From: an uncultured virus (IMG/VR IMGVR_UViG_3300012983_000043) | Lineage: Duplodnaviria; Heunggongvirae; Uroviricota; Caudoviricetes | DNA length: 64,000 nt | IMG/VR virus record: IMGVR_UViG_3300012983_000043 | Reading direction: 5' to 3' (one strand) | Shown: one piece after another, positions 22,476 through 44,797 of the stretch | Layout of the letters: every line of letters starts with the position of its first letter | Position numbering within the stretch: position 1 is the stretch's first letter | Translations under genes and position numbers: made by a program | The notes under the pieces: generated by a model | Databases searched by the model: none | What the model was told of the DNA's origin: nothing | The model's input: only the letters and a program-made list of their open reading frames with translations

Positions 22476-23764
22476 TCAGTCTTCTATCCAATTTCCATCA
22501 TCTTTGAGATAATCCTCTTCAAAAGAATCATCTTTTGCATCACTCCAACCCTGAGAATATGCTTCTTGCACAACTTCTAAAATGTCATTTAAAATGCTAT
22601 TTCTGTCAAGCGCTATAGAATAGAAATCTAAAATAGATTCGACTCTTTTCTTGAATTTTTCATCCATGTCAATCTTCCATGATGTCATCAACCATCTCTG
22701 GTGTGATTCCCAAGTCAACACGTCCCTTGAGCTCAAGAGCTTTGAGCTTGTTCATGACTGTCAGCTGCTTCGTCAGTTCTTGCGCTGCTATAGCCAATGT
22801 ATGATAGAAGTCTTCTTCAAAGCGCGTCATTTACTTGTCTCCTTTGTTTTTGACTAAATTATATCAAATTGCGCGCACGGTTTTCACTCAACCACTTGTC
22901 TACATAGTCATATAAGACTTTGCCAGTCCTTAAGTCAATTGTCTTGACAGTGTATGTCTTCCAATTGAGATCAAATAGCCAGTTCTCAAAGTCAGGCGAA
23001 GTCTGTTTGTTGAAGCCAGCATTCACTATCATCTCTTCAAATGTCATTGGCTCACTAGAGAAAGAATTGCTTTTGTCTCTATGCCAAGACATGACTGCAC
23101 CTTCATGTGTTATCATCTTGCACTTTGGATGCTTGCATGTCAAAAAGTTCTTGTATGTCCTGTATGGCACATCGCATGGACGCACAAGCGCATAGTCAAA
23201 CTTGTCAGGATCAAATTTGAAGTCTCGTGTGTCAATCTTCCAGATTTTTTCTACAACTGCAGTGTTGTTGCTTTTCATGATTCGAAGTCTATCTTTATAT
23301 TATTCATGTCTGCCCAGACTAGAAGCTCTTCTTTATTTGAAGAAGAAGCTATAGTAAACCATATTGGAATATTGTTATATGTCTTAATGCCATTCAAGTA
23401 CCATGCTCTTGTTCCATGGTGCAAGTTACATGAATTGAATATGACATTTTGATTCACTTTGTATATGTCAATCATATTGATTGCTTACATTGATGATTTG
23501 TCCAAATAAACCATATTGATTGTCTGCGATGAATTGCCCATATGAATAGTTTTCAATTGTCTTGTCTATAGTGATGTTATGGACATCAGCCCATACACGA
23601 ATTTCATCTTCATTGTCTGAATCTACAATGAAATGCACACGTTTTTTGTCAAATATTCCAATCAACTGCCAATTCATCATGAAATAGTCATCTCTATAAT
23701 TAAGAACAAATTTGTCATATTTGTCATATGGCAGTGTATGTCCAATCACTTGAAGCATCTTCAC
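22476..23764 (-). CDS. run of small hypothetical genes (about 22476-22674, 22859-23278, 23275-23475, 23468-23764)
   Basis: Overlapping start/stop codons; tags SNKEELLVWADMN and DNEDEIRVWADVH. Confidence 0.65.
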
Positions 23765-24930
23765 TCCTTGTAGCCAAGATATTTCAGAATCTTCTCAGTC
23801 GGCACATTCATGAAGAAGTCTCTGACTGATGCAATCTTCTTGTCAAGAAGTCCGAATGCTAATCCGGGAATCTTGAAGTTCTTAGTTATCCACAGAGCTT
23901 TGTCTTTTCGTGTCTGCAAGCTAGAATCTACTTTTAGATATTCATTCCATTCATTCTCTGAGTCTTCAACTAATTTCCAGAATCTTGTCTTGCACTCTTC
24001 AAGAGCTGCACGGAACTCCTCAAAGTACTCACATATCTCTTCTATCTCATTTGCACGGACAAGCTCAATAGCTCTAGCATATGACATCGTCCCATTCCCT
24101 TTGAGATGGTGAGCAGCTACATATGATGGAGATTTCACCTTCACTCTGTTGAACTTTCCATCACATACAACATATCCCTCTTCATCCCATGGCATTTCTT
24201 TTGTTGCAGCTAAGCATTCATCAATTGACTTCAAAGGAAAGACTTTTGGAGTGTCAAACAGCTTTGAGAAGACGGGGTCATCAGTGAAGTAAGTCTCCTC
24301 AAAAGTCTCATTGTTGCGCTTTCCAAGAAAGTAGAGTTTGTTCTCTTTATGAGGCACTACTACACGAGTCCATGGAGAGCATAACTCAAACATGTACGTG
24401 TAGCCTTCTTCCCAAAGAGCACATAGTCCTTCCTCTTGCAGCTTCTTCTGCCAGCCAGACTTCTCAAGAACAGCATCAAGCTGCTCAGCTACAATGTCAC
24501 CAAAGAAGCTGTATCTGCAGCCGAGCTGCTCTGCAATAGGTGCCTTAGAAGCAAGAATAGTCCCATTAGTAGAGATAAGCAAGTTGTCACCAACATTCAC
24601 AATCTTAATCAAGCTTCCATCTACCTTCTCTCCACAGCGAGCCGTAGTCCAGTCAATCTCTGGGCAGTATCCTTCTCCATAGTTTCCAAACTTCATGAAA
24701 GGAAATGAGACAATCTCATTGGTGTCTTCATTGAGAATCAAGCCACGGCACTCACGCACAATTGGCTCATTGAAGTCAGAATCAACTTGAGAGTACTTGA
24801 GCATCAAGAGATTCATGCCATTCCACTGCTCCCTTGACATAGTCAAGCAATATGGCTTCTCAGACAGCAGCTTCTCCCAGTCATCTGGATGCTGCTCAAT
24901 GAAGTTTTGAACTAGAAGTTTCTTTTTCAT
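23761..24930 (-). CDS. T4 Rnl1-like ATP-dependent RNA ligase
   Basis: ECRGLIL, FPFMKFGNYGE, motif I EKVDGS, TYMFEL, motif IV EGYVV, motif V RVKVKS..Y. Confidence 0.9.
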   Translation of the reverse strand: MKKKLLVQNFIEQHPDDWEKLLSEKPYCLTMSREQWNGMNLLMLKYSQVDSDFNEPIVRECRGLILNEDTNEIVSFPFMKFGNYGEGYCPEIDWTTARCGEKVDGSLIKIVNVGDNLLISTNGTILASKAPIAEQLGCRYSFFGDIVAEQLDAVLEKSGWQKKLQEEGLCALWEEGYTYMFELCSPWTRVVVPHKENKLYFLGKRNNETFEETYFTDDPVFSKLFDTPKVFPLKSIDECLAATKEMPWDEEGYVVCDGKFNRVKVKSPSYVAAHHLKGNGTMSYARAIELVRANEIEEICEYFEEFRAALEECKTRFWKLVEDSENEWNEYLKVDSSLQTRKDKALWITKNFKIPGLAFGLLDKKIASVRDFFMNVPTEKILKYLGYKE

Positions 24931-27866: not shown

Positions 27867-28712
27867 ATGAATGCAAAATCACAAATTGAATTTTGGGCAA
27901 GAATGCTCAATGAGAGCTCTCATGAATCATACTACAAGATGTACATGGCTGAGCATCCTGAAGACAAGCCTTTGCCTTTGATGAAGTCATTAGCAGAAGA
28001 GTTTGCAGAAGACTTGAAGAAAGACAACATAGACTTGAATGACTGCTTGAATGCTAAAGGTCTAGCTGACATCGGTGTGCTAGAGAAGATGCAAGCTTCA
28101 ATCAAGCACAAATACAAATGGGAATTGATAGATGCACGGGTATATGCAGCTATCATAAGTCGCATGACAGCATTAATGCACAGAGCTAAAGGCTAGAAGT
28201 TCACAGAGTCTGACACAATAGAATATGGTGATGTTGTTCACAATGTCTCTAGACGAGTGATTGAAAAATGCCTTGACATAATATGCCACAACACAAATGT
28301 GCTTGATGCAAACAAAGCTCTGTCAATGAGATATGACGTGACAACTGGCCCAAGCAAAGAAGCAATAGAAGCTTTCAAGTCTGCAGGAATCCCTGCAATT
28401 CCAAACTATGTGCCCGGTGATGGAGTTGTGACTGACTACTTTCCAGCTGCTATGCTCTACAAAGCATGGGCATCTTATGCAAAGGGAACTGCAGGAGAGA
28501 AGTATGTATGTGACAGTGACAATGGTCCAGAAGCTTTGAGAAAAGTGCTAGACAATGTTGAATACTCAGCTGATGACATTGACTTAATTGTTGCTCTCAA
28601 CAAGTCACTTGACATTGTTCATTTCAGAAGTGACTTAGCTGCAGCATTCATTGAGGGCGGACAGAGCACATGCGCAATGGTCAGCAATCTGCCTGACAAA
28701 TTTGTTGTGTGA
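27867..28712 (+). CDS. hypothetical protein, TAG-recoded (joins two track ORFs)
   Basis: Same frame across TAG at 28194-28196. Confidence 0.7.
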
Positions 28713-29196
28713 ATGACTTCAGCACTTCATCAAGCCTGACAGGAAATCCATCATGCGCTTGAACACAAGAGCAGAAGTTTGAAGACTTGTCTAATGGACC
28801 GACAACATAGCCTCGATGCATGTGTCCATATATCTGGTTCATAGAGCAGTCTTTTGGCTTGTGCTGAATGACAACATTGAATTCTTCAAGAATCAATCTG
28901 TCTAATACGGCATCAAAGACTTCTCTATAGAAGTCATCAGACAGCTTGTCATGATTTCCCTTTATCAGCATAATTCGACCATTCAGTCTTGACTTGAAGT
29001 TCAAGACACTTTTCTCATCGCCGTCACAGAAATCTCCATTGTACAAGACTATGTCATCTGAATTGACAGTTGAATTCCACTTCTCTATCAGCTTCTCTTC
29101 TTGCTCAGGCGTGAACACATGCAGAAATGGAAGCTTTATCGAGTCAAAATGATGGTCACTTGTGACAAATGTCTTCAATGGATCAATCTTCATCAT
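28681..29196 (-). CDS. calcineurin-like metallophosphoesterase
   Basis: SDHHF, NGDF, KGNHD, YGHMH. Confidence 0.85.
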   Translation of the reverse strand: MMKIDPLKTFVTSDHHFDSIKLPFLHVFTPEQEEKLIEKWNSTVNSDDIVLYNGDFCDGDEKSVLNFKSRLNGRIMLIKGNHDKLSDDFYREVFDAVLDRLILEEFNVVIQHKPKDCSMNQIYGHMHRGYVVGPLDKSSNFCSCVQAHDGFPVRLDEVLKSFTQQICQADC

Positions 29197-29578
29197 TAGT
29201 CTCAACTTGCTGTGGTTCTTCAACTATCTTGATTTTCAAGCCAGGAAATTCAGCAAGAAGATTTCCCATTGCTTCTCTCTTTGTGCTAGCTAGAACATAT
29301 GCCTCAGCATATGGATTCTTCGGATCAAGAAGCTTGCCATCTGGCCATTGAGCAGTGTAGCATATCTTGTACTGGTTCACCATTCGTCTTTTGTCCTTCT
29401 GTTTAGTTCTCGACGTGTATTTGCTTTGTCTTTCTTAGAGAATACTGTCCGAGTGCCAGTGTTCATCTTAATGACAATTCTTGGAATATAGGGTGTCTTC
29501 TTTTTCTTAGAGTTCTTCTTTTTCACAGTTGTCTCCTTTGGTTGATGTGACAACTATATCATAAACTGCAAGCAATGT

Positions 29579-32933: not shown

Positions 32934-33122
32934 ATGGCTTTAAGACGTGTAAGTGATCTTCCAAATCTTGATTCTGCAGTTCCAAAAATCACTAAAGATG
33001 TATTGAAGAACTGTTTGATTGAAGTGTCATATGCAAAACCTGACAATCAACAAGGCACTCATGTATATCAATCATATTTTGTGAATCTATATGATGCATT
33101 GTCTGCTTTCAATGCACGATGA
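32934..33122 (+). CDS. small late-type protein
   Basis: GTAAATA at 32900, AAAGGA RBS; RVSDLP motif similar to KISQLP of 37067-37504. Confidence 0.55.
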   Translation: MALRRVSDLPNLDSAVPKITKDVLKNCLIEVSYAKPDNQQGTHVYQSYFVNLYDALSAFNAR

Positions 33123-33124
33123 CA

Positions 33125-33427
33125 TTATAGCATCATGTCAACTGCAATGAGAATCTCTTCAAGTGACTTCTTCTCAGGTGCATAGCCGATGAACTTGTTG
33201 TCTTTGAAGACGCGTCCATGAATTCCATTCTTCTCAATGTCTTCTAAGATTGTCCTAAGTCCGCCTTCATGACCAATCATGTAGTAGAGATGCTTGTTGT
33301 CTTCGAAGTCAATTTCAACACTGAATTCATCAACAAACACTTCCACACCATAGCTTTCACATATCTTCTCAAGCTTAGTAAGAGATGATGGCTTTCGCTT
33401 GTGCTTTGTCTTTTTGTTTGATGGCAT
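33125..33427 (-). CDS. hypothetical protein with C-terminal tag
   Basis: KSLEEILIAVDMML. Confidence 0.7.
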   Translation of the reverse strand: MPSNKKTKHKRKPSSLTKLEKICESYGVEVFVDEFSVEIDFEDNKHLYYMIGHEGGLRTILEDIEKNGIHGRVFKDNKFIGYAPEKKSLEEILIAVDMML

Positions 33428-33441
33428 ATCATTCTTCTAAA

Positions 33442-33516
33442 TGGCTGAGGATGAACGAGTCGAACGTTCACTCTCGGTATCAAAAACCGATTTGCTCACC
33501 GCTACAACAATCCTCA
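33442..33516 (-). tRNA. tRNA-Gln(UUG)
   Basis: TGAGGAT/ATCCTCA acceptor, TCGGT-TTTTGAT-ACCGA, TTCGA, CCA. Confidence 0.9.
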
Positions 33517-33523
33517 AGTAAAA

Positions 33524-33598
33524 TGGTACGCCCAACGCTGCTCGAACTTGTAACTCCAATGTTAAAGTATCATTGCTCTACCAACTGAGTTAGGGCAT
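33524..33598 (-). pseudogene. degenerate tRNA pseudogene
   Basis: CTCAGTTGGTAGAGC D-arm, GTTCGA and ACCA present; anticodon and T stems do not pair canonically. Confidence 0.6.
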
Positions 33599-33651
33599 TT
33601 AAACATTCTGTATTTAAATTATATCAATTAACATTGTATTTTTATACTCAA

Positions 33652-34542
33652 TTAACCGCGTTTTTTGCCACGTGATGATTTATATTCAGGCAAATAGCAT
33701 TTACATAATCCAACAAAATTTGCCTATGAATATTGATAATCAAAATGTTCTTTAAATTTCTACCATCCATGATTGACATAATATTCATACATAGGTCTTA
33801 ATTCAGCAATTCGTTTTGGTTTGATTTCATTTTCACGTTTTTTCATGTAAAAATGCTTAAGCATCATCTTTCCATGTTCATTTAGTGGTTTTCCACGTTT
33901 TTCAAAACTAAATGGAATTGGATCATCTTTATTGATATATTTGACTTCATTAGTATTTGGATTAAATATTTTGCATTTATTTTTAGTGCTTTGTGAAAAT
34001 TCTTTCAATTGAGATATTACTTTATCAGTTATAGTCTAATACATTCCATATTCCCAACCATCAGGAAGCATTTCTGATTTAAGAATGACTTTTGATTCTT
34101 TCGTTGTTGGATTGCGAATCCAACAACGCTTCTTCATTGGATTATTTTCTCCTTTATTTGCTTCACTTGCAATTTTTGAAGCAAGCTTTCCAAATTCTTC
34201 TCTAGCCTATTGATAGTCTTCAGACATCAAAATGAAATCTCTCAATTCTTTTCGACTTCCATTTACAGTTCCTTTGTGCATGTTCATCAATGCACAAAGC
34301 ATCTAATCATGAAATTCATCATCATGATGAATGATCCAAAGATACACATGAGCCATAAAATGCTCTTTTGCAAGAAGAGCTATTTTATTCTCTTCAACAT
34401 CTAAACCATTCATTGAAGTTGGAATGATATGATGTATCTCTATTCTTCCTGGATGTTCTTTTGACTTAATCAAGACATTCTATTTTCTATATGCAACTAA
34501 GTCATTATAAGCTTTCTAAGCTTCTTCTTTTGTCATTGTCAT
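33652..34542 (-). CDS. HNH homing-type endonuclease, TAG-recoded
   Basis: EIHHIIPTSMNG.D...N...L.AKEHFMAH; multiple in-frame TAG; GTAAATA at 34580-34586. Confidence 0.8.
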
Positions 34543-34647
34543 TTTCTTTTTACCTTTTCTGTCATTGCTGTGACATTTTTATTTACTTTTTTATATAAAA
34601 TAATATACCCAAATCTGTTGGCAGCAACCATGAGTTTGGGTATAAAA

Positions 34648-34797
34648 TGGTCACAGTGATGAGAGTTGAACTCACTTAACCCTGATTATGGAGCTGGGTG
34701 AGGATTCCGAGACCTCATATTCCGTCTTACAAGGACGGCTCTTAACCGTTCAGACAACCCAGCAAAGTCAGGTGCATATCCGTTTTGCTACACTGTG
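34648..34797 (-). tRNA. tRNA-Lys(UUU), split in the anticodon by a nested tRNA-Thr (halves 34764-34797 and 34648-34688)
   Basis: CACAGTG...CCTGA-CTTT | TAA-TCAGG...CACTGTG-A-CCA. Confidence 0.88.
34689..34763 (-). tRNA. tRNA-Thr(UGU) nested inside tRNA-Lys
   Basis: GCTGGGT/ACCCAGC-T-CCA; CCGTC-CTTGTAA-GACGG. Confidence 0.88.
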
Positions 34798-34806
34798 CAA
34801 TAAATT

Positions 34807-34897
34807 TGGTCGCCAGAACGAGAGTTGCACTCGTACACAGTTTTTAACCTGCACTGGATTTTGAGTCCAGCTCGTCTGCTTATTCCGACATCTGGCG
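34807..34897 (-). tRNA. tRNA-Leu(CAA)
   Basis: CTGGA-CTCAAAA-TCCAG, long variable arm, ACCA. Confidence 0.9.
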
Positions 34898-34921
34898 AAA
34901 TCATCTTTATTCTATCAAAAA

Positions 34922-35443
34922 TCAATCTTCTTTAAACAACTTCTTGTCAGCATTCAACTTCTTTGCTGCATCCATGAATTCATTCAACCTGTCTTTCACT
35001 TCAAGAAGACTTCTTTTCAAATCATAGTTCTCTTCTTCTACCTCTAGAATCCGTCTTGACATATCCGACACCAGCTTATGCTGTGCATCATCACTGACAG
35101 AGACATTTGCAATCAAGTCTCTGATGCAAGAGGGCTCTTGCTCAAGCTCTGCAACATATCCCTCTGTCTCTAGTCTGATGAGAAGCTCATGAATGTCTTT
35201 AGCATTGAAATCATGTATCAATTCAGTGTGGTCTTCAAGTATGATGCTCTTCCGCTGTTTAATGTCAAGACTGTTGAGTTTTGCAATTCTTGTGTATCTT
35301 CTGGTATGCAAGAAGATGCGTCCAATGTTCATGTCATCATAGAACACAACATGACCTAAGTTCTTCATGTCATCAAGCTTGGCAATTGCCAAATCAGACC
35401 AGTCATCATCAACTAAAAGGACATATTTTGTCTTTTCACTCAT
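34922..35443 (-). CDS. hypothetical protein, internal tag plus coiled coil
   Basis: KDIHELLIRLE; layout like 24927-25352. Confidence 0.7.
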   Translation of the reverse strand: MSEKTKYVLLVDDDWSDLAIAKLDDMKNLGHVVFYDDMNIGRIFLHTRRYTRIAKLNSLDIKQRKSIILEDHTELIHDFNAKDIHELLIRLETEGYVAELEQEPSCIRDLIANVSVSDDAQHKLVSDMSRRILEVEEENYDLKRSLLEVKDRLNEFMDAAKKLNADKKLFKED

Positions 35444-35988
35444 CAGTGAACTCCAGCTTTCAAGTCTGCCCAGACTATCAGTTCGTCAATTGATGAGACA
35501 TCAGGCGTCTTGTATTCAGAATATTTTTTAATTTCATGCAGTGGTCTATTGATCAATCTATCTGCTACAGCGTCAAACAGAACATTGAATCTCATTGTTG
35601 CAGCTGTGCCGTAATTGCACTTTATTGCGTCTGACACAGCTCGATTGATTCTGCTGAACACAACATTCACTAGCTTTCTTTCATCAAGATGGAATTCACT
35701 GACTAGCTCTTCAAGAGAGACAATCTGCTCTCTAAGCATGATGCGTGGATTTGCCTTTTTGAAGAGAGAATCTACTTTGCCAAATGATCCAATGTCATCA
35801 CTCCATCGATTGTATGACAAGCGGTAGTAGTTGTTGCTAGTGTCTTTCACTCTGAAGAAGAATCTGTTCTTGAGGCTGGTTGCATTCACATAGAAGACTG
35901 GCTTGCCAGCTGGCACAACGGCCGCTGCAAATGCATAGATGAATTGCTTCATCTCTTCAAAAGAATGTCTTTTGCTAGTTGTCTTCAT
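35443..35988 (-). CDS. hypothetical protein with C-terminal tag
   Basis: SSIDELIVWADLKAGVH; start approximate. Confidence 0.7.
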   Translation of the reverse strand: MKTTSKRHSFEEMKQFIYAFAAAVVPAGKPVFYVNATSLKNRFFFRVKDTSNNYYRLSYNRWSDDIGSFGKVDSLFKKANPRIMLREQIVSLEELVSEFHLDERKLVNVVFSRINRAVSDAIKCNYGTAATMRFNVLFDAVADRLINRPLHEIKKYSEYKTPDVSSIDELIVWADLKAGVH

Positions 35989-36139
35989 GTGTCTGATCTC
36001 AAAAAACTTGCATGCACCTATCACCGCATGCATTCATGCTGGAGACATATTGTCCAAGCATAGAATGAATGCATGCTCTTGTATGTTAGTTGTTGTGTCA
36101 CTGGAGTTGACGAAGCGTCCACGCTTTTGCATGCAATGC

Positions 36140-36286
36140 TGGCATCCCTGAGAGGACTCGGACCTCCAACCACAAGCTTATGATGCCAAGCGCAAGACTC
36201 GAACTTGCATTTTCCTAATATGCTAGGATGTCTTGCATTAGACGAACTTGACGAAGGCTCGTGCTCTTCCATTGAGCTACAGGGAC
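36140..36286 (-). tRNA. tRNA-Arg(UCU), split in the anticodon (halves 36253-36286 and 36140-36180)
   Basis: GTCCCTG-TA-GCTC..GAGC-A-CGAGC-CTTC | TAA-GCTTG...CAGGGAT-G-CCA. Confidence 0.88.
36181..36252 (-). ncRNA. 72-nt tRNA-like insert without a canonical anticodon loop
   Basis: GTCAAGT/GCTTGGC acceptor, GTCT/AGAC D-stem, TCCTAG-CATA-TTAGGA, GCAAG-TTCGAGT-CTTGC, ends A-TCA. Confidence 0.85.
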
Positions 36287-36294
36287 TTCAAACA

Positions 36295-36763
36295 TCACTT
36301 GTTCTTGCCGCGGCCCTTCTCCTTGCGCCGCTTGATCTCCTTGTGCACGCCCGGAGCAGTTCCCTTTGCCCACTCTTCAAGCACAGCATTTGACACGCAC
36401 CTGACAACGGGCTTGATCTTTGTCAAGAAGTAGTATTGCTTGCTTGAACGGTTCTTCACTGGCGGGACATGTGTTCCTGGAATCTGAATCATCTTTTGTT
36501 CTCCAATTTATTTTGTTTCAATTATATCAAATTCTTCTCAAGTCTTTCACTCAAGCATTGTAGATCTGGCCCTTCCAGCGATATACATTCTGGCGCTCAA
36601 TCTTGCCAGTCCTCTTGTTCTTGTATGTCTTTGATGACTGCCCATATGCAATCTCTACACCAGTTGCTCCAGCAGGAATCAATGTCTTAGATGTCTCTGC
36701 ATCCCAGACAGGATATTTAGTCGGCTTGCCAAGCGGCTTGAAGTCATATTCATTCATAGTAGT
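36295..36763 (-). CDS. two small hypothetical genes (36295-36492, about 36551-36757)
   Basis: Track ORFs, RBS, promoter element between them. Confidence 0.55.
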
Positions 36764-36937
36764 TTCCTTTTCACTTTCCATAGATTCCAAAGATCAAGAT
36801 GACAATGAATGCAATGATGCCAAGCACACAACCGCATCCGGCTCGAATTGCATCATCACGAGCAAACTCTTCTTTTTCTTGTTGGTTGTCATTCATGGTT
36901 GAATTATATCATATTGCATATGATTCTTTAACTCAAT

Positions 36938-37012
36938 TGGTGCCTCTGCTAGGAATTGAACCTAGCTTACATGGATGAAAACCATGTGTACTAACCGCTA
37001 TACGACAGAGGC
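36938..37012 (-). tRNA. tRNA-Glu(UUC)
   Basis: CATGG-TTTTCAT-CCATG; GCCTCTG/CAGAGGC-A-CCA. Confidence 0.92.
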
Positions 37013-37066
37013 AATTTAATTGATTGTCTTGATTTCAGACAAAATAGCAGTCATATTTGCATAGCA

Positions 37067-37504
37067 TCAAGCATCATATACAGGACCGCCTTGTTCAGAG
37101 CCGCCGCCATTGACAAGAATTGTTTCATCTTGTCTTCCATCACTGATCCTGTCAAGCGCATTCTTCAATATAGTGTCAAATGCATCACCGCTTAATGCAG
37201 ATGAAAGTGCATCAGGCAATTCATTAGTAAGCACTTGCTCTGCTATTCTTGCAACTTCTTCTTCAAGAGCTTCCGTCAATGCATCTTGCACAGCTTGTCC
37301 GACAATAGACGATATCTGTGGCGTGAGCTCATTCTTCACTTTTGCTTTTATGTAGTTAGAGTAAGTTCCGACCTGAAGCTTCTTTGACTCAAATGGATAT
37401 TTTCCACCTGTGTGGTCTGACACAAGAAGCAGGTCATTGTTGTCAATGCTCGACTATGCCATCTCTGGCAGCTGTGATATCTTGAAAGACTTAGTTGTTG
37501 CCAT
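37067..37504 (-). CDS. hypothetical late-type protein, TAG-recoded
   Basis: MATTKSFKISQLPEMA(Q)SSIDNNDLLLVSD continues into the track ORF. Confidence 0.65.
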
Positions 37505-37751
37505 TTTCATTTGCCTCATTGCATTCTTCTTTTGTCAGCCTGAACTTCTCTAATTCATCTAGAAAGAACTTATCACCGAATTCATTTATCAACCAGCAAT
37601 ACTCATCATAGTCGGGTGACTCTTCTGGTATGCCTCCGCCAATGACATAAGGCGCAAACTTTCTTGCAATTGCTTGTGCTCTCATCAGACGAGCATATGC
37701 AGCTTGCCGCTGCTAGTTGATCTTCCACCAATATATCTAAGTAGCTGTCAT
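37491..37751 (-). CDS. hypothetical protein, TAG-recoded
   Basis: MTAT(Q)IYWWKIN(Q)QRQAAYARLMRAQ...; GTAAATA at 37757-37763. Confidence 0.65.
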
Positions 37752-37770
37752 GATTTTATTTACTTCAAGT

Positions 37771-37864
37771 TGGTGACAGGGGATGGATTCGAACCACCGA
37801 TGTTTACCACTTAGGTACGAGTTTTACAGACTCGCGTCTTCGGCCAGCTAGACAAAACCCTGCC
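37771..37864 (-). tRNA. tRNA-Tyr(GUA)
   Basis: CGAGT-CTGTAAA-ACTCG, long variable arm, GTTCGAAT, ACCA. Confidence 0.9.
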
Positions 37865-37876
37865 AATAAACTCAAA

Positions 37877-37952
37877 TGGTAGGCGATGAGTGAGTCGAAC
37901 ACTCCTAAGCTCCTTATAAGAGAGCAGTAATCAACCGATATACGAATCGCCC
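37877..37952 (-). tRNA. tRNA-Ile(UAU)
   Basis: GCTCT-CTTATAA-GGAGC; GTTCGACT; ACCA. Confidence 0.88.
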
Positions 37953-38137
37953 ATAAATCGCGGAGGGTTTTTTGTTGAGCCATCACATAAATGTGCTTGC
38001 GGCGTTATATTCAACATAATGAGCTTAACATCACGTCTAATGAAACTCCAACCCACAACTTCTTGCAAGTGACTGCTGTGTCTCAAGCAGCTTTCATTGA
38101 CATATTATCAAATTTCATTTGACTTTAAACTAAATTC

Positions 38138-38211
38138 TGGAGCGCCGTGCGGATCCCGAGACCGCATATCCAGCTTGGAAGGCTGGCATTCTGCCTTTGA
38201 ATTAACAGCGC
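38138..38211 (-). tRNA. tRNA-Gly(UCC)
   Basis: CCAGC-CTTCCAA-GCTGG; GCG start, T-CCA end. Confidence 0.9.
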
Positions 38212-38225
38212 ATACATTAAAAAGA

Positions 38226-38490
38226 ATGCTCACATATCTGACTGGAACTTGCAACAAATGAGGTACCTAAGTCAGCAAGCCTTCGGCGCTATTCACCAAA
38301 CTGTTCAGTATTCCATTATTGATGCTTTAATAGACACATCTTTCAATTTTCAGGTATGCACCTTCGCAATCAGCATGACTCTCAGTTGTCTGCTCACCTT
38401 AGATATGGGGCATTTGACTCCCCAATGAGGTGTAAGGCTGCCGTTGAAGCATTAAGCATACGAGGTCTGACTCCCTCTCTACATGAGCAT
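38226..38490 (-). ncRNA. candidate ~265-nt structured RNA
   Basis: ORF-free; closed by ATGCTCATGTA/TATGTGAGCAT helix; internal GGG/CCC and CTGACT/AGTCAG complements. Confidence 0.45.
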
Positions 38491-38539
38491 AATAAAACTA
38501 ATTTTTGTAATAAGATTTAAACTTACAATCTTATTATAC

Positions 38540-39349
38540 TTAAGAACAATTTCTAAAAATATTTTCAAGCTATTTAACTACATTGTTTTTAGGACGAATT
38601 CTTATAGTCATATAGCCATTCTTCAATGCAATTTCATCTTTTTGCTTATCTGCTATATTTCCTTCAGGATGCCAAAATTCTCCATCAATTTCAATAAATA
38701 GCTTTTTTAAAGGAATATAAAAATCTACAAAACGTTTTATATTTTCAAAACAAAATTCTTTTTGGTGTTCAAAAATAATATTATGCTTTGATAACCAATC
38801 AAATGCAACTTGTTCAGGATAAGTCATCTATTTTCTATTTCCTGCTAATTTACGATTAGGATGTTTTTCAGGATGTTCTGTATAAAACTTCTTCTTTTTT
38901 TCTGACTAAGCTTTACGTTTTTCATCTGTCCAATATAATGAAGAACATCTATTTATTATAGATCCATTTGCTATACCTTCTTTCATAGCAATTGAAACTG
39001 CTTTAGAATTACGTTTTACACGTTCATCGGTTTCTTTTGTAAGACCTTTATTCCAAGCATATATTCTTCCATCTTCTCCAATTTTAACATGATTATTATG
39101 AATATGTTTTTGTAATTCATTTTTTGTTTTACAAATCTTATTACAATGTTTACATTTCCATGTTCCAAATGGAGCAGTCTGTTTAGAATGATCCTATTTT
39201 ATTCCACGTCTCTTTAAACCAAGAGCAATATAATCAATGGATAATGATGCCATTGCACTAGCACAGGATTTTGAACAAAATCTTCCAGAACCATAAGATC
39301 CATCATGTTCTTTTTTACATTTTGGATTTTCACAAATATATTTTTTCAT
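38540..39349 (-). CDS. Vsr/DUF559-like (EDxHD-type) endonuclease with zinc-finger N-terminus, TAG-recoded
   Basis: CENPKC..HDGSYGSGRFCSKSC; TYPE...FVDFY...IEIDGEFWH...KD; GTAAATA at 39355-39361. Confidence 0.8.
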
Positions 39350-39389
39350 AAAAATATTTACTCAAGCGCATTACTAAACTCATCTAAAT

Positions 39390-39465
39390 TGGTCGGAGCG
39401 CCAGGTGCTGCCCCTGGACCTTCGGTTCCCAAAACCGGCGTGCAAAGCTGTTATACCACGCTCCG
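39390..39465 (-). tRNA. tRNA-Pro(UGG)
   Basis: CCGGT-TTTGGGA-ACCGA; CGGAGCG/CGCTCCG-A-CCA; atypical GGCAGCA T-loop. Confidence 0.88.
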
Positions 39466-39472
39466 AAATCAA

Positions 39473-39620
39473 TGGTGGACCTGATCGGTGCTGCCCCGAT
39501 TCAATGATGCTTGAGGAGCTGAGACTAAGACTCGAACTTAGATCTTCCTAAGTTGCTAGGATGTCTTGCATTAGACGACCTCAACCAAAGCACCCGTGTT
39601 TGCTGATTCACTACAGGCCC
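39473..39620 (-). tRNA. tRNA-Ala(UGC), split in the anticodon (halves 39586-39620 and 39473-39513)
   Basis: GGGCCTG/CAGGTCC-A-CCA with G3:U70; GGTGC-TTTG | CAA-GCATC. Confidence 0.88.
39514..39585 (-). ncRNA. 72-nt tRNA-like insert, homolog of 36181-36252
   Basis: GTTGAGG/TCTCAGC acceptor; shares CGTCTAATGCAAGACATCCTAGCA..TTAGGAA and AAGTTCGAGTCTT; ends T-CCT. Confidence 0.85.
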
Positions 39621-39630
39621 AAATAAAATT

Positions 39631-39785
39631 CTCATGTGGGTGGACTCGAACCACCAAGCTTTCGCGGCAGATTATGGACGATCTATCTGGAGTTGCACCA
39701 GAATCGCAGCCATTCTCATGATTGCATTCTACTATTTAACTATAGACCGACAGTCTGCTGAGGCTACCGATTTCTCCACACATGA
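39631..39785 (-). tRNA. tRNA-Asn(GUU), split in the anticodon (halves 39750-39785 and 39631-39674)
   Basis: TCATGTG/CACATGA-G; GCAGA-CTGT | TAA-TCTGC; GGTGG-TTCGAGT-CCACC; CCA not encoded. Confidence 0.85.
39675..39749 (-). ncRNA. 75-nt tRNA-like insert
   Basis: CGGTCTA/TAGATCG-T-CCA; TCTGG-TGCAACT-CCAGA; extended irregular anticodon arm. Confidence 0.8.
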
Positions 39786-39795
39786 ATAAATTGTT

Positions 39796-39919
39796 TGGTC
39801 CGGCAAGGAGACCACTACTTCTCCAATGCTAAGCTTTCACATATGATCATGCACTTAGCGCCCACCTCAATGCGGGTGTGTCTATGGCGAGACTCTACGT
39901 CTCTTTGCACCATTGCCGA
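39796..39919 (-). ncRNA. 124-nt enlarged tRNA-like RNA
   Basis: TCGGCAA/TTGCCGG-A-CCA; GGAGA/TCTCC; extra GAGAC/GTCTC hairpin; CCCGC-ATTGAG-GTGGG; long GCTAAG/CTTAGC arm. Confidence 0.65.
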
Positions 39920-39923
39920 AATT

Positions 39924-40085
39924 TAGCGGGTGTGGGAAATGCTCCCAACGTGGATGTTATCCGGGAGGTTTGGACAATCGGTCAAGACTCGAACTTGAAT
40001 TGCTTTCTACTTAATTCAAAAGTGTTTTACATCTTAAACTACCGGTTGATGGGCCTCCTGACTTTGACTTCTAGTCTAACCCGCA
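39924..40085 (-). tRNA. initiator-like tRNA-Met(CAU), split in the anticodon loop (halves 40049-40085 and 39924-39970)
   Basis: GCGGGT/ACCCGC with 1:72 mismatch; GGAGG-CCCAT | AA-CCTCC. Confidence 0.82.
39971..40048 (-). ncRNA. 78-nt tRNA-like insert
   Basis: CAACCGG/CCGATTG-T-CCA; GTTT/AAAC D-stem; TCAAG-TTCGAGT-CTTGA; irregular anticodon arm. Confidence 0.8.
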
Positions 40086-40329
40086 ATTAAATTCTCTATT
40101 CAGAAGCTCACAACTTCTGACAAACCAACTTCAATTTTCAAAGAACAATTATATTATACATCAATGCCAAAGCATTATATACTTTTATTTCATCTTAGGG
40201 CACTTGTAGTTTGCATGATTGTCAACTGCAGGACACAGAGCATTGTCTTTGCATGCTTCACATGTCTGCTTGCTTGGCTTCACTGCAGGTTTGTCTTTGA
40301 GAATTTTCTTGTTCATATTGTCAATTCAT

Positions 40330-40755
40330 TCAAGTCTTCAAATCAGCTTTGACTTTCAATTCTTCAAGATTGTTGATTATGTATTTTTTGCCAGCAACTT
40401 CTATCATCAAACCCTCATCATCAGCGTCAAACCCATGCAGCACAGCTTTCATCGCCTGATATTTGACATCATCAGGATCACATCTCATATGATATGCAAA
40501 ACTGTCAATGCTGATCACATAATTGATGCTCCATTCAAGTTGGCTGTCATAGTCTTTCCAGATTTTAGAGTCATACAATTCAATGTATGCTTCGCCTGGC
40601 AAAGAATACAGAATATGTTCTTCATCTTCATCATTGTCGGTGTCATCATTGCTTGCATGCAAAACACTGTTATGGTCTATGAACAATGAATCAATGCCCA
40701 GCAATGCACATAGTCCATCATACAATTTAGATGCATTTTTTCTTGTCAGCTTCAT
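40330..40755 (-). CDS. hypothetical protein with C-terminal tag
   Basis: NNLEELKVKADLKT; paralog of 41939-42373. Confidence 0.75.
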   Translation of the reverse strand: MKLTRKNASKLYDGLCALLGIDSLFIDHNSVLHASNDDTDNDEDEEHILYSLPGEAYIELYDSKIWKDYDSQLEWSINYVISIDSFAYHMRCDPDDVKYQAMKAVLHGFDADDEGLMIEVAGKKYIINNLEELKVKADLKT

Positions 40756-40961
40756 TTGATTCTCTATTCAATTCATTAAAATGCCAAGGGCTTCTAGAAG
40801 TTGATCATTCTTCTAGAAGCCCACCTCTCCCGATGAGAGGCACACCATGCTTGCAAGCCATGGTGCATTTATGCGTTCTGTTCGCTTGCGCTAGCAAGGT
40901 GCATTGCTCCTGCCGGACATCCATCCGGCGTGCCCACAACTGCAACCGGCGTGGACGGATA

Positions 40962-41874
40962 TCAGAAAGTCAAGTCAACATCAATTGTCCGCCAGAACTC
41001 AAGGTCATCCATGAGCTTCGGAAGTGTCTTGAAAGACGGCCTAATCGGCTTTCCATCTTCTTCGATATAGAGAGTGTCGCCCTTCTTGTATAGCTTGCTT
41101 GCACGCTTCACAAGAGGCTTAGTCAGCTGATGGACAACTCGCAGTGCCTTCTTGACATCTTTGAACATCTTCTTCAGCTCAGCATGCTGCTGGACAAACT
41201 CTTTCTTAGTGATGGGCTTCTTCATTATGATCTCCTTTGTTAGTTTGTTTGTTGATTGATTTGATGGTTCAATCATATCAAGACTTGAATGCTGTTTTCA
41301 CTCAAACATTCAATTTTGAAATTTTGATGCTGTTGATGAAATTACAGCACGCATCAATGAACTTGACTACATCAGATTCTGAGATGCATTGCGCATGAAG
41401 TTGCGCATTGAGCTCTTCAAGTCGAGCTTTGAGATTTTGGTTCTCTTCTACAAGCGCGTCATATACAGCAAGATTGCTAGAGTGCATTTGCTTGTAGTGT
41501 TCAAAAAGCTCCTTGAGCTTTGCGTTCTCTACTTCAAGCTTGTCAATGTATGCTCTAACTTCAGGTGTGATTCCAAAGTCTGCATCAGTCCATTCATCTG
41601 CCTTTGGAGCTTTGCTCTCATTCTCAAGCTTTGCAATAGCGTCTTTCAGATACTGCTTGCCTGCATCAAGAATGAACCAGCTGTCCTTGAACTTCTTGAT
41701 GTATCCAGCATTGTGAAGCTGATAGAGAGCATTGCTGATAGACTTCTTGTCCTTGAATGCTTTATTCTTGATCAAGACATCTTTGTCTCCTTCACACAAT
41801 GCATCCTGGTATTTGCTGCATGTAGTCATCCAGAGAAGGATGATCTGAGGCTTTGTGAGTTGTTTAAGCTTCAT
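40962..41874 (-). CDS. two hypothetical genes (40962-about 41225; 41302-41874, wHTH-like plus coiled coil)
   Basis: RBS AAAGGAGA; SISNALYQLHNAGYIKK..WFILDAG. Confidence 0.65.
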
Positions 41875-44161: not shown

Positions 44162-44797
44162 TCACATAAACTTGTCTTCGCCGAAGAATTCAAGTTTTCC
44201 GTGTTCATTCTTCTTGCATCTGTAGAGCTGGCCTGGAATCTTCTTGAAGAGCTTATTGAGATATGCAATCAATTCATCATCTGAGACAATCTTCCAGTTC
44301 CACACCATGCATCCCATGTTCACATTCAAAATCCTGTGGTCAAGGTCAAGACAGTGCTTCCAGCTGTTATGGACATGCCCGCATAAGTGAATGGGCGCTG
44401 TCATGCATGATGCATCGCACCGGCGGTCATATGTAGGGTAGTGTGACAAAGACACAGACGGATATCTCTTGCTCAAGAATATGTGCATAGAGTCACACAC
44501 TGACTTGACTTTGTTGTTCAAGTCATGATTGCCTCTGATGTTGATGAATGTCGCAGAAATGTCTTTTATCAGCTCATAGGGCTTGACATCTAGGCCTTTA
44601 GAGTCTAGATGCGCATCTTGCTTGAAGCACGCAAGGTCGCCCAAATGGTAGATTATGTCTTCAGGCTTAGCGCGTTGCTTGCATGACCTGAGCAGCGCAG
44701 CATCATGTTTCTCAATAGACTTAAATGGCCATGAGTCTAGCTTAAGCAGAGACTCAAAACCAAAATGAAAATCGGATGAGAAGTATTTATGTGCCAT
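44162..44797 (-). CDS. calcineurin-like metallophosphoesterase
   Basis: SDFHFG, LGD, RGNHD, SHYP, CGHVH. Confidence 0.88.
   Translation of the reverse strand: MAHKYFSSDFHFGFESLLKLDSWPFKSIEKHDAALLRSCKQRAKPEDIIYHLGDLACFKQDAHLDSKGLDVKPYELIKDISATFINIRGNHDLNNKVKSVCDSMHIFLSKRYPSVSLSHYPTYDRRCDASCMTAPIHLCGHVHNSWKHCLDLDHRILNVNMGCMVWNWKIVSDDELIAYLNKLFKKIPGQLYRCKKNEHGKLEFFGEDKFM

What the first reader, a model, noticed from the sequence alone, without database searches (positions are those of the whole stretch)
34648..40085. Nested tRNAs: five tRNA genes each carry a whole tRNA-shaped insert inside the anticodon loop
Seen: Lys(UUU) CTTT|TAA, Arg(UCU) CTTC|TAA, Ala(UGC) TTTG|CAA and Asn(GUU) CTGT|TAA are all cut between anticodon positions 35 and 36. 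Met(CAU) CCCAT|AA is cut at 36/37. Each insert is a 72-78 nt cloverleaf beginning exactly at acceptor-stem base 1 and ending at CCA (TCA or CCT in two). There is no target duplication or spacer, and removal restores a perfect 7-nt loop. Outer halves keep their pairing and identity elements (Ala G3:U70, Asn G73, Met 1:72 mismatch). Established: RNase P leaves a 3'-OH on the upstream piece, 3' endonucleolytic tRNA processing leaves a 5'-P on the downstream piece, and Rnl1 joins such ends in broken anticodon loops. Inference: the inner tRNA acts as an intron removed by ordinary tRNA processing, and the outer halves are then ligated. This differs from group I/II and bulge-helix-bulge introns, and I know of no description of it. 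The 3' cut would have to fall after the terminal triplet.
Basis: partly seen in the sequence, partly recalled or inferred. Interest (0 to 1): 0.98.

Follow-up and report, generated by a model that had tools for sequence, protein, structure and literature searches.

The report
tRNA-shaped inserts splitting phage tRNA genes
Five transfer-RNA genes of an uncultured rumen phage are each split in the anticodon loop by a whole tRNA-shaped insert, a layout that recurs in many large phages and is most likely a barely described kind of intron that ordinary tRNA-trimming enzymes cut out and a phage RNA ligase reseals.

Summary
On the minus strand, five tRNA genes (Lys UUU, Arg UCU, Ala UGC, Asn GUU, Met CAU) each carry a 72-78 nt insert. 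Each insert runs from acceptor base 1 to a 3' triplet and reaches Rfam's tRNA threshold. Removing it restores a 7-nt anticodon loop.

- Only one insert (Thr UGU) has a normal anticodon loop.
- Relatives in ruminant-gut runs hold the Met gene both with and without its insert.

A motif scan of IMG/VR found 44 further nests (34 distinct sequences), with inserts from 44-nt acceptor/T minihelices to full tRNAs. In nine families, outer stems keep pairing through 19 double changes, and no change breaks a pair. All 10 tested contigs encode an ATP-dependent RNA ligase. In six complete genomes, 10 of 10 nested outers supply an anticodon that no free-standing tRNA supplies.

Best reading (0.5): a tRNA-shaped intron excised by RNase P and a 3' endonuclease, with the exons sealed by the ligase. 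No RNA evidence was obtainable.

This scan had earlier noted nested tRNAs of a different build in CPR bacteria and one phage.

The parts
34764..34797 (-). outer tRNA-Lys(UUU), 5' half (positions 1-35)
   Evidence: ARAGORN calls Lys(ttt) after excision
34689..34763 (-). insert 1: canonical tRNA-Thr(UGU), 75 nt, ends CCA
   Evidence: ARAGORN; Rfam 40.6 bits
34648..34688 (-). outer tRNA-Lys(UUU), 3' half (36-76)
36253..36286 (-). outer tRNA-Arg(UCU), 5' half
   Evidence: A20 in the D loop read from the sequence
36181..36252 (-). insert 2: tRNA-like, 72 nt, 6-nt anticodon loop, ends TCA; paralogue of insert 3
   Evidence: Rfam 34.6 bits; alignment
36140..36180 (-). outer tRNA-Arg(UCU), 3' half
39586..39620 (-). 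outer tRNA-Ala(UGC), 5' half (G3 of the G3:U70 pair)
39514..39585 (-). insert 3: tRNA-like, 72 nt, 6-nt anticodon loop, ends CCT
   Evidence: Rfam 36.0 bits
39473..39513 (-). outer tRNA-Ala(UGC), 3' half; same unusual T loop as the free-standing tRNA-Pro at 39390-39465
39750..39785 (-). outer tRNA-Asn(GUU), 5' half
39675..39749 (-). insert 4: tRNA-like, 75 nt, irregular anticodon arm, ends CCA
   Evidence: Rfam 32.2 bits
39631..39674 (-). outer tRNA-Asn(GUU), 3' half, discriminator G, no encoded CCA
40049..40085 (-). outer CAU-anticodon tRNA ('Met'), 5' half, cut after position 36
   Evidence: uninterrupted in relatives
39971..40048 (-). insert 5: tRNA-like, 78 nt, about 10-nt anticodon loop, which ARAGORN reads as UUA; ends CCA; absent from some relatives
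   Evidence: ARAGORN; Rfam 35.7 bits; joints 39955->40049
39924..39970 (-). outer CAU-anticodon tRNA, 3' half with extra variable arm and 5-nt T loop
23761..24930 (-). Rnl1-family RNA ligase, candidate exon sealer
   Evidence: PF09511 3.1e-17; phrog_562 9.2e-52 over residues 34-383; T4 Rnl1 2C5U E 1.4e-11 with motif I Lys aligned

Best explanation
Each nest is one gene that yields two RNAs.

1. The precursor folds as a tRNA standing on the anticodon loop of another tRNA.
2. RNase P cuts at base 1 of the inner element. This leaves a 3'-OH on outer position 35 (36 in Met).
3. An endonuclease cuts right after the inner element's 3' triplet. This leaves a 5'-phosphate on outer position 36 (37 in Met).
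4. The two outer halves stay paired as a nicked tRNA.
5. The phage's Rnl1-type ligase seals the nick into a working tRNA.

The inner element is thus an intron whose only required feature is the acceptor/T-arm shape read by the tRNA end-processing enzymes. The inserts are gained and lost as exact units and behave like mobile introns.

Shown: the anatomy, recurrence, intactness and non-redundancy of the outers, co-occurrence with ligases, and presence/absence alleles.
Inferred: both cuts, the ligation, the enzymes and the route of mobility.
For: 1. Boundaries coincide to the base with inner +1 and the 3' triplet in 5 of 5 nests, and removal gives 7-nt loops. Shifting the cut by one base changes the anticodon. 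The tRNA-defined cut gives UGC for the tRNA with G3:U70 and UCU for the one with A20 (the identity rules are recalled).
2. The inner acceptor, D and T arms are kept, but the anticodon loops are abnormal in 4 of 5. In IMG/VR the inserts range down to 44-nt acceptor/T minihelices, and only 3 of about 15 families hold a canonical inner tRNA.
3. Recurrence: 44 of 103 matches to a 3'-junction motif are nests (41 with perfect 19/19 pairing), against 1 of 103 with shuffled upstream sequence.
4. Outer stems in 9 families (28 distinct sequences, 153 pair positions): 19 have both sides changed and are still paired, 7 have one side changed and are still paired, and 0 are broken by a change. RNAalifold recovers the nested fold with 9 compensatory pairs, all in the outer tRNA.
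5. Non-redundancy: 10 of 10 nested outers in six complete genomes, and 5 of 5 in the window, carry an anticodon that no free-standing tRNA there has. One phage with 29 free tRNAs gets Asn GUU and Glu UUC only from nests.
6. Ligase: Rnl1 in the window. Of 10 nest contigs, 5 have PF09511 and 5 have an OB+PF09414 RNA ligase. Four comparison contigs give 0 and 1.
7. Relatives carry the Met gene with the insert, and others lack exactly the 78-nt insert. The Lys/Thr nest shows no listed difference in contigs whose neighbouring genes differ by about 6% (that table is truncated).
8. A cut immediately after CCA is documented for RNase E and for T. maritima tRNase Z.
Against: - There is no RNA evidence of any kind. 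No RNA run was available, and the single read-laying run went to DNA contigs.
- Two window inserts end TCA and CCT, and one IMG/VR insert ends CAA, so a CCA-guided cut cannot be general.
- Lak-type inserts carry a 5' hairpin and linker that RNase P would leave on the 5' exon. One minihelix insert ends at the discriminator (L032). The class may therefore use other or additional nucleases.
- Rnl1 lies 10 kb from the nests and has a known other role in tRNA repair (recalled).
- Only 1 of 4 Lak-type or no-CCA contigs showed any RNA ligase, but these are 53-63% complete.
- The covariation may predate insertion where the same insert sits in different Lys tRNAs.
- Nests were selected by pairing thresholds, which biases the intactness counts for the acceptor and anticodon stems (not the T stem).
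- The ligase comparison set is small and unmatched.
Confidence: 0.5

Rival explanations
1. The inserts are spliced out and the outers work, but by other enzymes. For example, a dedicated phage or host endonuclease could recognise the tRNA-on-tRNA junction and leave cyclic-phosphate/5'-OH ends, which are then healed and ligated.
For: The window has two metallophosphoesterase genes, 28681-29223 and 44162-44797, of a kind used for end healing in some RNA repair systems (recalled). Non-CCA 3' triplets and the 5' hairpin of Lak-type inserts are not explained by RNase P plus a CCA-guided cut.
Against: No kinase or splicing-endonuclease domain was found among the ORFs scanned. RtcB was found in 0 of 5 nest contigs. 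What the inserts conserve is the acceptor/T minihelix, the RNase P substrate.
Confidence: 0.15
2. The outers are dead shells. A tRNA or tRNA-like unit was inserted into the anticodon loop, for instance by mis-ligation of RNAs followed by copying back into DNA. Only the inner RNA, if anything, is made. The halves look intact because the events are recent.
For: Filled and empty Met alleles in close relatives. An identical 61-nt insert in strongly different tRNA-Lys genes. A very fluid tRNA cluster with homing-endonuclease genes next to it. 59 of 103 motif matches are a tRNA followed by an orphan 3' half. Earlier notes of this scan read CPR nests this way.
Against: Most inserts cannot decode, so nothing useful would remain. 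41 of 44 nests pair perfectly, with no decaying intermediates among called nests. No replacement copy of the lost anticodon exists in six complete genomes. One complete phage would then carry 4 dead and 3 live tRNA genes. A reverse transcriptase was found in only 2 of 10 nest contigs.
Confidence: 0.17
3. The double cloverleaf, or its pieces (halves, minihelix), is the product: a non-decoding tRNA look-alike. It might, for example, act as a decoy for host tRNA-targeting defences.
For: Stable nested folds. Several tRNAs of this phage have unusual elbows. The outers are mostly Lys, Asn, Arg, Glu and Gly, types that known anticodon nucleases or wobble-modification enzymes act on (the link is recalled).
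Against: The loops restore canonical C/U32-U33-anticodon-A37-A38 in all but Met. The anticodons fill gaps in the phage's own tRNA set. An empty Met allele is an ordinary continuous tRNA. The YrlA model scores 12.9 bits against a threshold of 69. A minihelix inside a loop should be cut by RNase P (recalled), so the intact chimera is unlikely to persist.
Confidence: 0.13
4. Assembly or chimera artefact.
For: None beyond the metagenomic origin.
Against: Contigs from four runs of four studies bridge the junctions. 44 analogous nests lie in unrelated IMG/VR contigs.
Confidence: 0.01

Closest known systems
Lak megaphage tRNA introns (Devoto et al. 2019, PMC6784885; passages and Table S6 read)
   Same: Phage tRNA genes interrupted in the anticodon loop. 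The insert contains a tRNA-like part (Rfam tRNA hit in their Thr intron). Alleles with and without the insert occur. The insert sequence is highly conserved. IMG/VR loci L036 and L079 carry their 'Tyr' intron family.
   Different: Lak inserts start with a hairpin and an A-rich linker before the tRNA-like part and appear to end at the discriminator. The window's inserts are bare tRNA shapes from +1 to position 76. The paper called them enigmatic and offered no mechanism, ligase link or survey.
T4 anticodon-loop repair (PrrC nuclease, Pnkp, Rnl1) - recalled
   Same: An Rnl1 ligase seals a nick in a tRNA anticodon loop between 3'-OH and 5'-P ends. The window's ligase is a full-length Rnl1 homologue.
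   Different: There the break is made by a host defence nuclease at 33/34 in a host tRNA and needs end healing. Here the breaks would come from tRNA end-processing of a phage-encoded precursor at 35/36 or 36/37.
Archaeal/eukaryal protein-spliced tRNA introns (bulge-helix-bulge, EndA/Sen + ligase) - recalled
   Same: Protein enzymes cut, a ligase joins, and the intron sits in or near the anticodon loop.
   Different: There is no bulge-helix-bulge. The junction is a 4 x 7 nt internal loop between the outer anticodon stem and the inner acceptor stem. Those introns leave cyclic-phosphate ends.
Bacterial and phage group I introns in tRNA anticodon loops - recalled
   Same: Intron in the anticodon loop, mobile, with presence/absence alleles.
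   Different: The inserts are 44-85 nt (up to 122 nt in G005), far too small for a group I core. No Intron_gpI match at E<=1 in 33000-41000.
tRNA punctuation and tRNA-like processing signals (mitochondrial transcripts, MALAT1 mascRNA) - recalled
   Same: A tRNA shape recruits RNase P and RNase Z to cut a longer RNA at its two ends.
   Different: There the flanks are separate products and are not rejoined. Here the flanks are the two halves of another tRNA.
Hairpin-stalk tRNA cassettes in CPR bacteria
   Same: A tRNA inside the anticodon loop of a tRNA gene.
   Different: Those inner tRNAs sit on a stalk or hairpin, usually repeat the outer anticodon, and were read as DNA insertions into dead shells. 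Here there is no stalk, the anticodons differ and most inserts do not decode.

Membership tests
tRNA (Rfam RF00005), the five inserts | covariance-model score at or above the gathering score of 29 bits | tested here: met
   40.6, 34.6, 36.0, 32.2 and 35.7 bits
decoding tRNA, the five inserts | 7-nt anticodon loop with U33 | tested here: not met
   Met only by Thr (1 of 5). The others have loops of 6, 6, about 8 and about 10 nt.
tRNA, the five outers after excision | cloverleaf recognised by a tRNA finder | tested here: inconclusive
   ARAGORN of 5. Ala and Met are only MFE cloverleaves. An Infernal scan of the joined sequences could not be run with these tools.
Group I intron | conserved catalytic core (Rfam Intron_gpI), about 200 nt or more | tested here: not met
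   No match at E<=1. Inserts are 72-78 nt.
Bulge-helix-bulge intron | two 3-nt bulges separated by a 4-bp helix at the splice sites | tested here: not met
   MFE folds of the Lys and Arg precursors show a 4 x 7 nt internal loop instead.
Lak-type phage tRNA intron | tRNA-like element in the anticodon loop of a phage tRNA, with filled and empty alleles | tested here: met
Lak-type phage tRNA intron | 5' hairpin plus A-rich linker before the tRNA-like part | tested here: not met
   The window's inserts begin at acceptor base 1. Compare.
Rnl1 RNA ligase (gene 23761-24930) | PF09511 domain, motif I lysine, C-terminal extension like T4 gp63 | tested here: met
   PF09511 63.6 bits against a cut-off of 28.3. 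phrog_562 covers residues 34-383 of 389. Lys of K-x-D-G aligned to T4 Rnl1.
Rnl1 RNA ligase | seals anticodon-loop nicks of these tRNAs | not testable with these tools
   needs biochemistry
YrlA / Y RNA-like tRNA mimic | Rfam RF02553 at or above 69 bits | tested here: not met
   12.9 bits, E 5.6
Split or permuted tRNA genes | halves encoded apart or in reversed order | tested here: not met
   The halves are collinear and separated only by the insert.

The most novel reading that the evidence does not exclude
A new class of mobile intron. tRNA- or minihelix-shaped elements use the cell's tRNA end-processing enzymes (RNase P and a 3' endonuclease) to define and cut both splice sites. An ATP-dependent phage RNA ligase (Rnl1 or an OB-fold Rnl) joins the exons. 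They are widespread in large phages and give a second, housekeeping reason for phages to carry RNA ligases. The reverse reaction, ligation of the excised element into a nicked anticodon loop, would explain why the same insert sits at the same position in unrelated tRNA-Lys genes.
Probability: 0.4. Interest if true: 0.95.

Novelty: new variant of a known kind. Interest (0 to 1): 0.9.

Why it matters
If the outers are spliced, this is a fourth way to remove a tRNA intron, alongside group I, group II and bulge-helix-bulge. The intron's own tRNA shape would serve as the splice signal, and no dedicated splicing machinery would be needed beyond a ligase.

It would:
- explain the 'enigmatic' Lak phage introns;
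- correct phage tRNA censuses. Standard finders miss the outers: one complete phage shows 3 tRNAs but has 7;
- give phage RNA ligases a routine job;
- offer a simple design for making two RNAs from one transcript.

It can be tested directly with one cloned locus, RNase P, RNase E or Z, and the ligase.

Tried and rejected
- No match of 34600-40100 in 50,697 phage records.
- No whole genome is held for the window.
- Five exact window patterns found nothing in IMG/VR and one identical fragment in JGI metagenomes (one search shows it is 100% identical, so it is not independent).
- Protein-guided searches with the 196-aa cluster protein found no relatives in IMG/VR or in prokaryote genomes.
- The nearest cultured-phage homologues of two window proteins are only about 31% identical.
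- No RNA holder was listed among sequencing runs, so no junction reads could be sought.
- The read laying difference table is truncated (395 rows not shown), so substitutions inside the Ala, Asn and Met nests of relatives could not be read.
- A search for an uninterrupted allele of the L122 Lys outer returned only the four nested contigs.
- ARAGORN with every single deletion of 5-99 nt did not turn the 125-nt element at 39795-39919 into a tRNA.
- The sigma-70 promoter scan was at shuffle level.
- My first brute-force excision of the first IMG/VR set was too noisy and was replaced by pairing-based calls.
- Reverse transcriptase as a companion: 2 of 10 nest contigs.
- RtcB: 0 of 5.
- PF09511 in Lak-type or no-CCA contigs: 0 of 4 searched, with L036 not held.
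- The five window inserts are not one family; only the Arg and Ala inserts are paralogues.
- Literature searches for a description or mechanism found only Devoto et al. 2019. Papers outside the held library were not searched.

Full report
**What is there.**
The window is phage-like. It has small genes mostly on the minus strand, an Rnl1-type ligase, a DenV-like glycosylase, TnpB fragments and homing-endonuclease-like ORFs. It has no close relative among 50,697 phage records.

Between 33442 and 40085 lies a dense minus-strand tRNA array. ARAGORN finds 8 tRNAs there (9 in the whole window). Rfam adds a tRNA-Pro and further tRNA hits.

Five of the Rfam or ARAGORN tRNAs are flanked directly, without spacer or duplication, by the two halves of another tRNA. 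The insert lies between anticodon positions 35 and 36 in Lys UUU, Arg UCU, Ala UGC and Asn GUU, and between 36 and 37 in the CAU tRNA.

Each insert runs from acceptor base 1 to a 3' triplet: CCA in three, TCA and CCT in the other two. All five reach the Rfam tRNA gathering score.

After excision by coordinates, ARAGORN calls Lys, Arg and Asn. The Ala and CAU outers are not called. Neither is the free-standing tRNA-Pro, which shares Ala's unusual D and T loops and is seen only by Rfam. MFE folds give cloverleaves for joined Lys, Arg and Ala, a cloverleaf with an extra arm for the CAU tRNA, and double cloverleaves for the full Lys and Arg precursors.

Controls:
- Excising 8 of 8 free-standing tRNAs never creates a spanning tRNA.
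- 7 of 20000 random deletions do.

Only the Thr insert is a normal decoder. The Arg and Ala inserts, which are paralogues, have 6-nt anticodon loops. The Asn and Met inserts have irregular arms with loops of about 8 and about 10 nt. Their acceptor, D and T arms are intact.

The anticodon of the outer depends on the exact cut. ARAGORN's intron mode, which shifts the boundaries by one or two bases, reads Gln, Met or Lys, and Asp instead. With the tRNA-defined boundaries, the tRNA that has G3:U70 reads UGC and the one with A20 reads UCU. This supports those boundaries (the identity rules are recalled).

**Relatives.**
Sequencing runs from ruminant guts hold related DNA. Twenty rows from 13 studies share 0.16-0.29 of the sampled words. 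I laid the contigs of four runs from four studies.

- Two contigs (X1 record 1, X5 record 14) cover the Lys/Thr nest without a joint. The difference table lists none inside it, while about 38 are listed in the next 700 nt. That table is truncated, so this is likely rather than certain.
- X1 record 7 and X5 record 17 cover the Ala, Asn and Met nests with 16 differences and 2 indels in 613 nt. Both indels lie outside the nests.
- X2 record 13 has the Ala and Asn nests but an empty Met site. Contigs in X1, X5 and X6 also have joints across the Met insert. For the X2 contig, and for an X5 contig with near-identical bridging letters, I read the letters at the joint: the outer loop is continuous and exactly the 78-nt insert is missing. 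So the CAU tRNA exists uninterrupted, and the insert is a discrete unit that is gained or lost to the base.
- A more distant X5 contig (record 15) has a Thr-like tRNA free-standing behind another tRNA. It also keeps the Asn nest, with a 2-nt insertion only in the outer variable loop.
- The Arg nest is replaced by 102-108 unrelated letters in two contigs.
- L001, from a JGI metagenome, is identical to the window and adds nothing.

**Prior art.**
Eight full-text searches found one relevant paper. Devoto et al. 2019 on Lak megaphages (PMC6784885) reported that some phage tRNAs 'contain enigmatic introns', that one intron 'itself may encode a tRNA', and that alleles lacking it exist (passages; Table S6). 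No mechanism was proposed.

Their introns begin with a hairpin and an A-rich linker before the tRNA-like part. The window's inserts do not.

**The layout is widespread.**
I scanned IMG/VR for two T loops 24-33 nt apart. Among these loci were:
- Lak-type inserts: L036, L079, L044, L051, L072, L092, L093.
- Bare inserts: a full tRNA-Phe-like insert (L021), 44-45 nt acceptor/T minihelices ending in CCA (L023, L071), and one ending at the discriminator (L032).

A second, sharper pattern (inner T loop, 12 nt, CCA, NAA, 12-14 nt, outer T loop) gave 103 matches in 102 loci.

By pairing alone, requiring inner acceptor, outer anticodon stem and outer acceptor, 44 of the 103 are nests and 41 of these score a perfect 19 of 19. 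With shuffled upstream sequence, 1 of 103 is called.

The 44 nests comprise 34 distinct sequences in about 15 families.
- Outer anticodons, by distinct sequences: GUU 9, UUU 14, UUC 4, UCC 5, UCU 2.
- Inserts: 44-85 nt.
- Only three families have a canonical inner tRNA: Gly, Asp and Thr.

The pattern fixes the CCA end and largely fixes the insertion site, so those two features are not independent findings there. The remaining 59 matches are a tRNA followed by an orphan tRNA 3' half. I did not resolve these.

**Are the outers kept?**
In nine families with 28 distinct sequences, the outer acceptor, anticodon and T stems give 153 pair positions:
- 126 invariant.
- 19 with both sides changed and still paired.
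- 7 with one side changed and still paired.
- 1 invariant mismatch.
- 0 where a change breaks a pair.

RNAalifold on five Lys nests returns the nested fold, with 9 compensatory pairs, all in the outer tRNA, and none broken.

In that family an identical 61-nt insert sits in three strongly different tRNA-Lys genes. So the insert has moved between genes, or was exchanged, without converting the flanks. Part of the covariation may therefore predate insertion. Either way, every copy is intact.

I fetched six complete nest-bearing phage genomes whole and scanned them.
- One has 3 free-standing tRNAs and 4 nested ones: Ile UAU, Thr UGU, Gln UUG and Lys UUU.
- One has 29 free-standing tRNAs and obtains Asn GUU and Glu UUC only from nests.
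- Overall, 10 of 10 clean nested outers carry an anticodon absent from the free-standing set of the same genome. A crude null gives about 3e-4.
- In the window, 5 of 5 outers are likewise unique among the tRNAs found, but the window is only part of a genome.

**Ligases.**
The window's gene at 23761-24930 is a full-length Rnl1 homologue:
- PF09511, 3.1e-17.
- phrog_562, 9.2e-52.
- T4 Rnl1 structure 2C5U, E 1.4e-11, with the motif I lysine aligned.

Of 10 nest-bearing IMG/VR contigs tested, 5 have PF09511. The other 5 have a 434-477 aa ORF with an OB fold (PF21189) plus PF09414 RNA ligase. Three of these five are over the cut-off, and none has another family hit. None of those five has RtcB.

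Four comparison contigs without a called nest gave 0 of 4 and 1 of 4. Four Lak-type or no-CCA contigs, 53-63% complete, gave 0 of 4 and 1 of 4. These numbers are small and the comparison set is not matched.

**Mechanism.**
Established chemistry (recalled): RNase P leaves a 5'-phosphate on the tRNA and a 3'-OH on the leader. RNase Z and RNase E leave a 3'-OH upstream and a 5'-phosphate downstream. ATP-dependent RNA ligases join 3'-OH to 5'-phosphate, and T4 Rnl1 prefers nicks in tRNA anticodon loops. Bacterial RNase P cuts acceptor/T minihelices.

A cut immediately after CCA is documented in two cases:
- RNase E at the three E. coli proline tRNAs (PMC5291269, abstract and discussion passages).
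- T. maritima tRNase Z (as cited in PMC3161902, passage).

The precursor would therefore be cut at both ends of the inner element, and the outer halves, still paired, would be sealed. This fits the following findings:
- The boundaries.
- The reduction of inserts to minihelices.
- The free drift of the inner anticodon arms.
- The ligase co-occurrence.
- The intact, non-redundant outers.

It does not explain what cuts after TCA, CCT or CAA triplets. It does not explain the 5' hairpin of Lak-type inserts, or why the site is 35/36.

**Mobility.**
The exact gain and loss of the unit, and the same insert in different Lys genes, suggest an RNA-level route: ligation of an excised element into a nicked loop, then copying into DNA. 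However, a reverse transcriptase is present in only 2 of 10 nest contigs. This part is speculation.

**Verdict.**
It rests on comparative inference only.
- The claim of complete novelty must be tempered by the Lak paper. The bare tRNA form, its breadth, the minihelix series, the ligase link and the non-redundancy of the outers were not found in print.
- Earlier notes of this scan describe nested tRNAs of a different build in CPR bacteria and in one phage. I used them as rival readings only.

Noticed in passing
window 33652-34542 (-) and 38540-39349 (-): Two AT-rich (GC 0.30 and 0.28) homing-endonuclease-like ORFs are open only if TAG is read as sense (7 and 4 in-frame TAG). They match HNH/homing-endonuclease PHROGs across the TAGs. 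Of 16 other genes checked, 13 stop in TGA, 2 in TAA and 1 in TAG. No CUA-anticodon tRNA was seen in the window. The ORFs are either recoded or broken.
   Followed up: partly
window 39795-39919 (-): A 125-nt element between the Met and Asn nests has a 7-bp acceptor-like stem, ACCA end, T-arm-like hairpin and three further hairpins (MFE -43.3). No single deletion of 5-99 nt makes ARAGORN call a tRNA.
   Followed up: partly
window 39390-39465, 39473-39620, 38138-38211, 34689-34763 (-): Several tRNAs of this phage have non-canonical elbows. Pro and the Ala outer share a GGCAGCA T loop and D loops without GG. Gly and Thr share a 9-nt-looking TCTCGGRAT T region. ARAGORN misses Pro.
   Followed up: partly
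window about 33520-33600 (-), = L001 2270-2345: A tRNA-like sequence ending ACCA with a canonical-looking D arm and a 9-nt anticodon loop. Neither ARAGORN nor Rfam calls it.
   Followed up: no
window 36137-36294 and 38320-39466: In relatives the whole Arg nest is replaced by 102-108 unrelated letters (X1, X5). The stretch holding the DUF559 endonuclease ORF and tRNA-Pro is replaced by about 520 or 1031 other letters (X2, X5). The tRNA array is highly fluid.
   Followed up: partly
window 4990-5556 (-) and 14357-15262 (+): TnpB/Cas12f-like TNB domain fragments (PF07282, 1.2e-20 and 2e-11), apparently truncated copies.
   Followed up: no
IMG/VR loci, e.g. L124 family (12 loci), L146 family (7 loci), L080, L015: 59 of 103 motif matches are a complete tRNA followed at once by an orphan tRNA 3' half, with no 5' half within 100 nt upstream. 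These may be decayed nests, nests with multi-tRNA inserts, or something else.
   Followed up: partly
IMG/VR record G005 (120,427 bp, complete), 81535-84399: This phage has four nested tRNAs within 3 kb and only three free-standing ones. Inserts are 61-122 nt, and one ends CAA instead of CCA.
   Followed up: partly
L141 (IMG/VR): A tRNA-Tyr is flanked by a 7-bp stem whose 3' side is followed by a T-arm hairpin. It looks as if a tRNA sat inside a minihelix rather than inside a full tRNA.
   Followed up: no
window 28681-29223 and 44162-44797 (-): Two calcineurin-like phosphoesterase genes (phrog_547, 2e-28 and 2.5e-27). They could heal RNA ends but may equally have unrelated roles.
   Followed up: no
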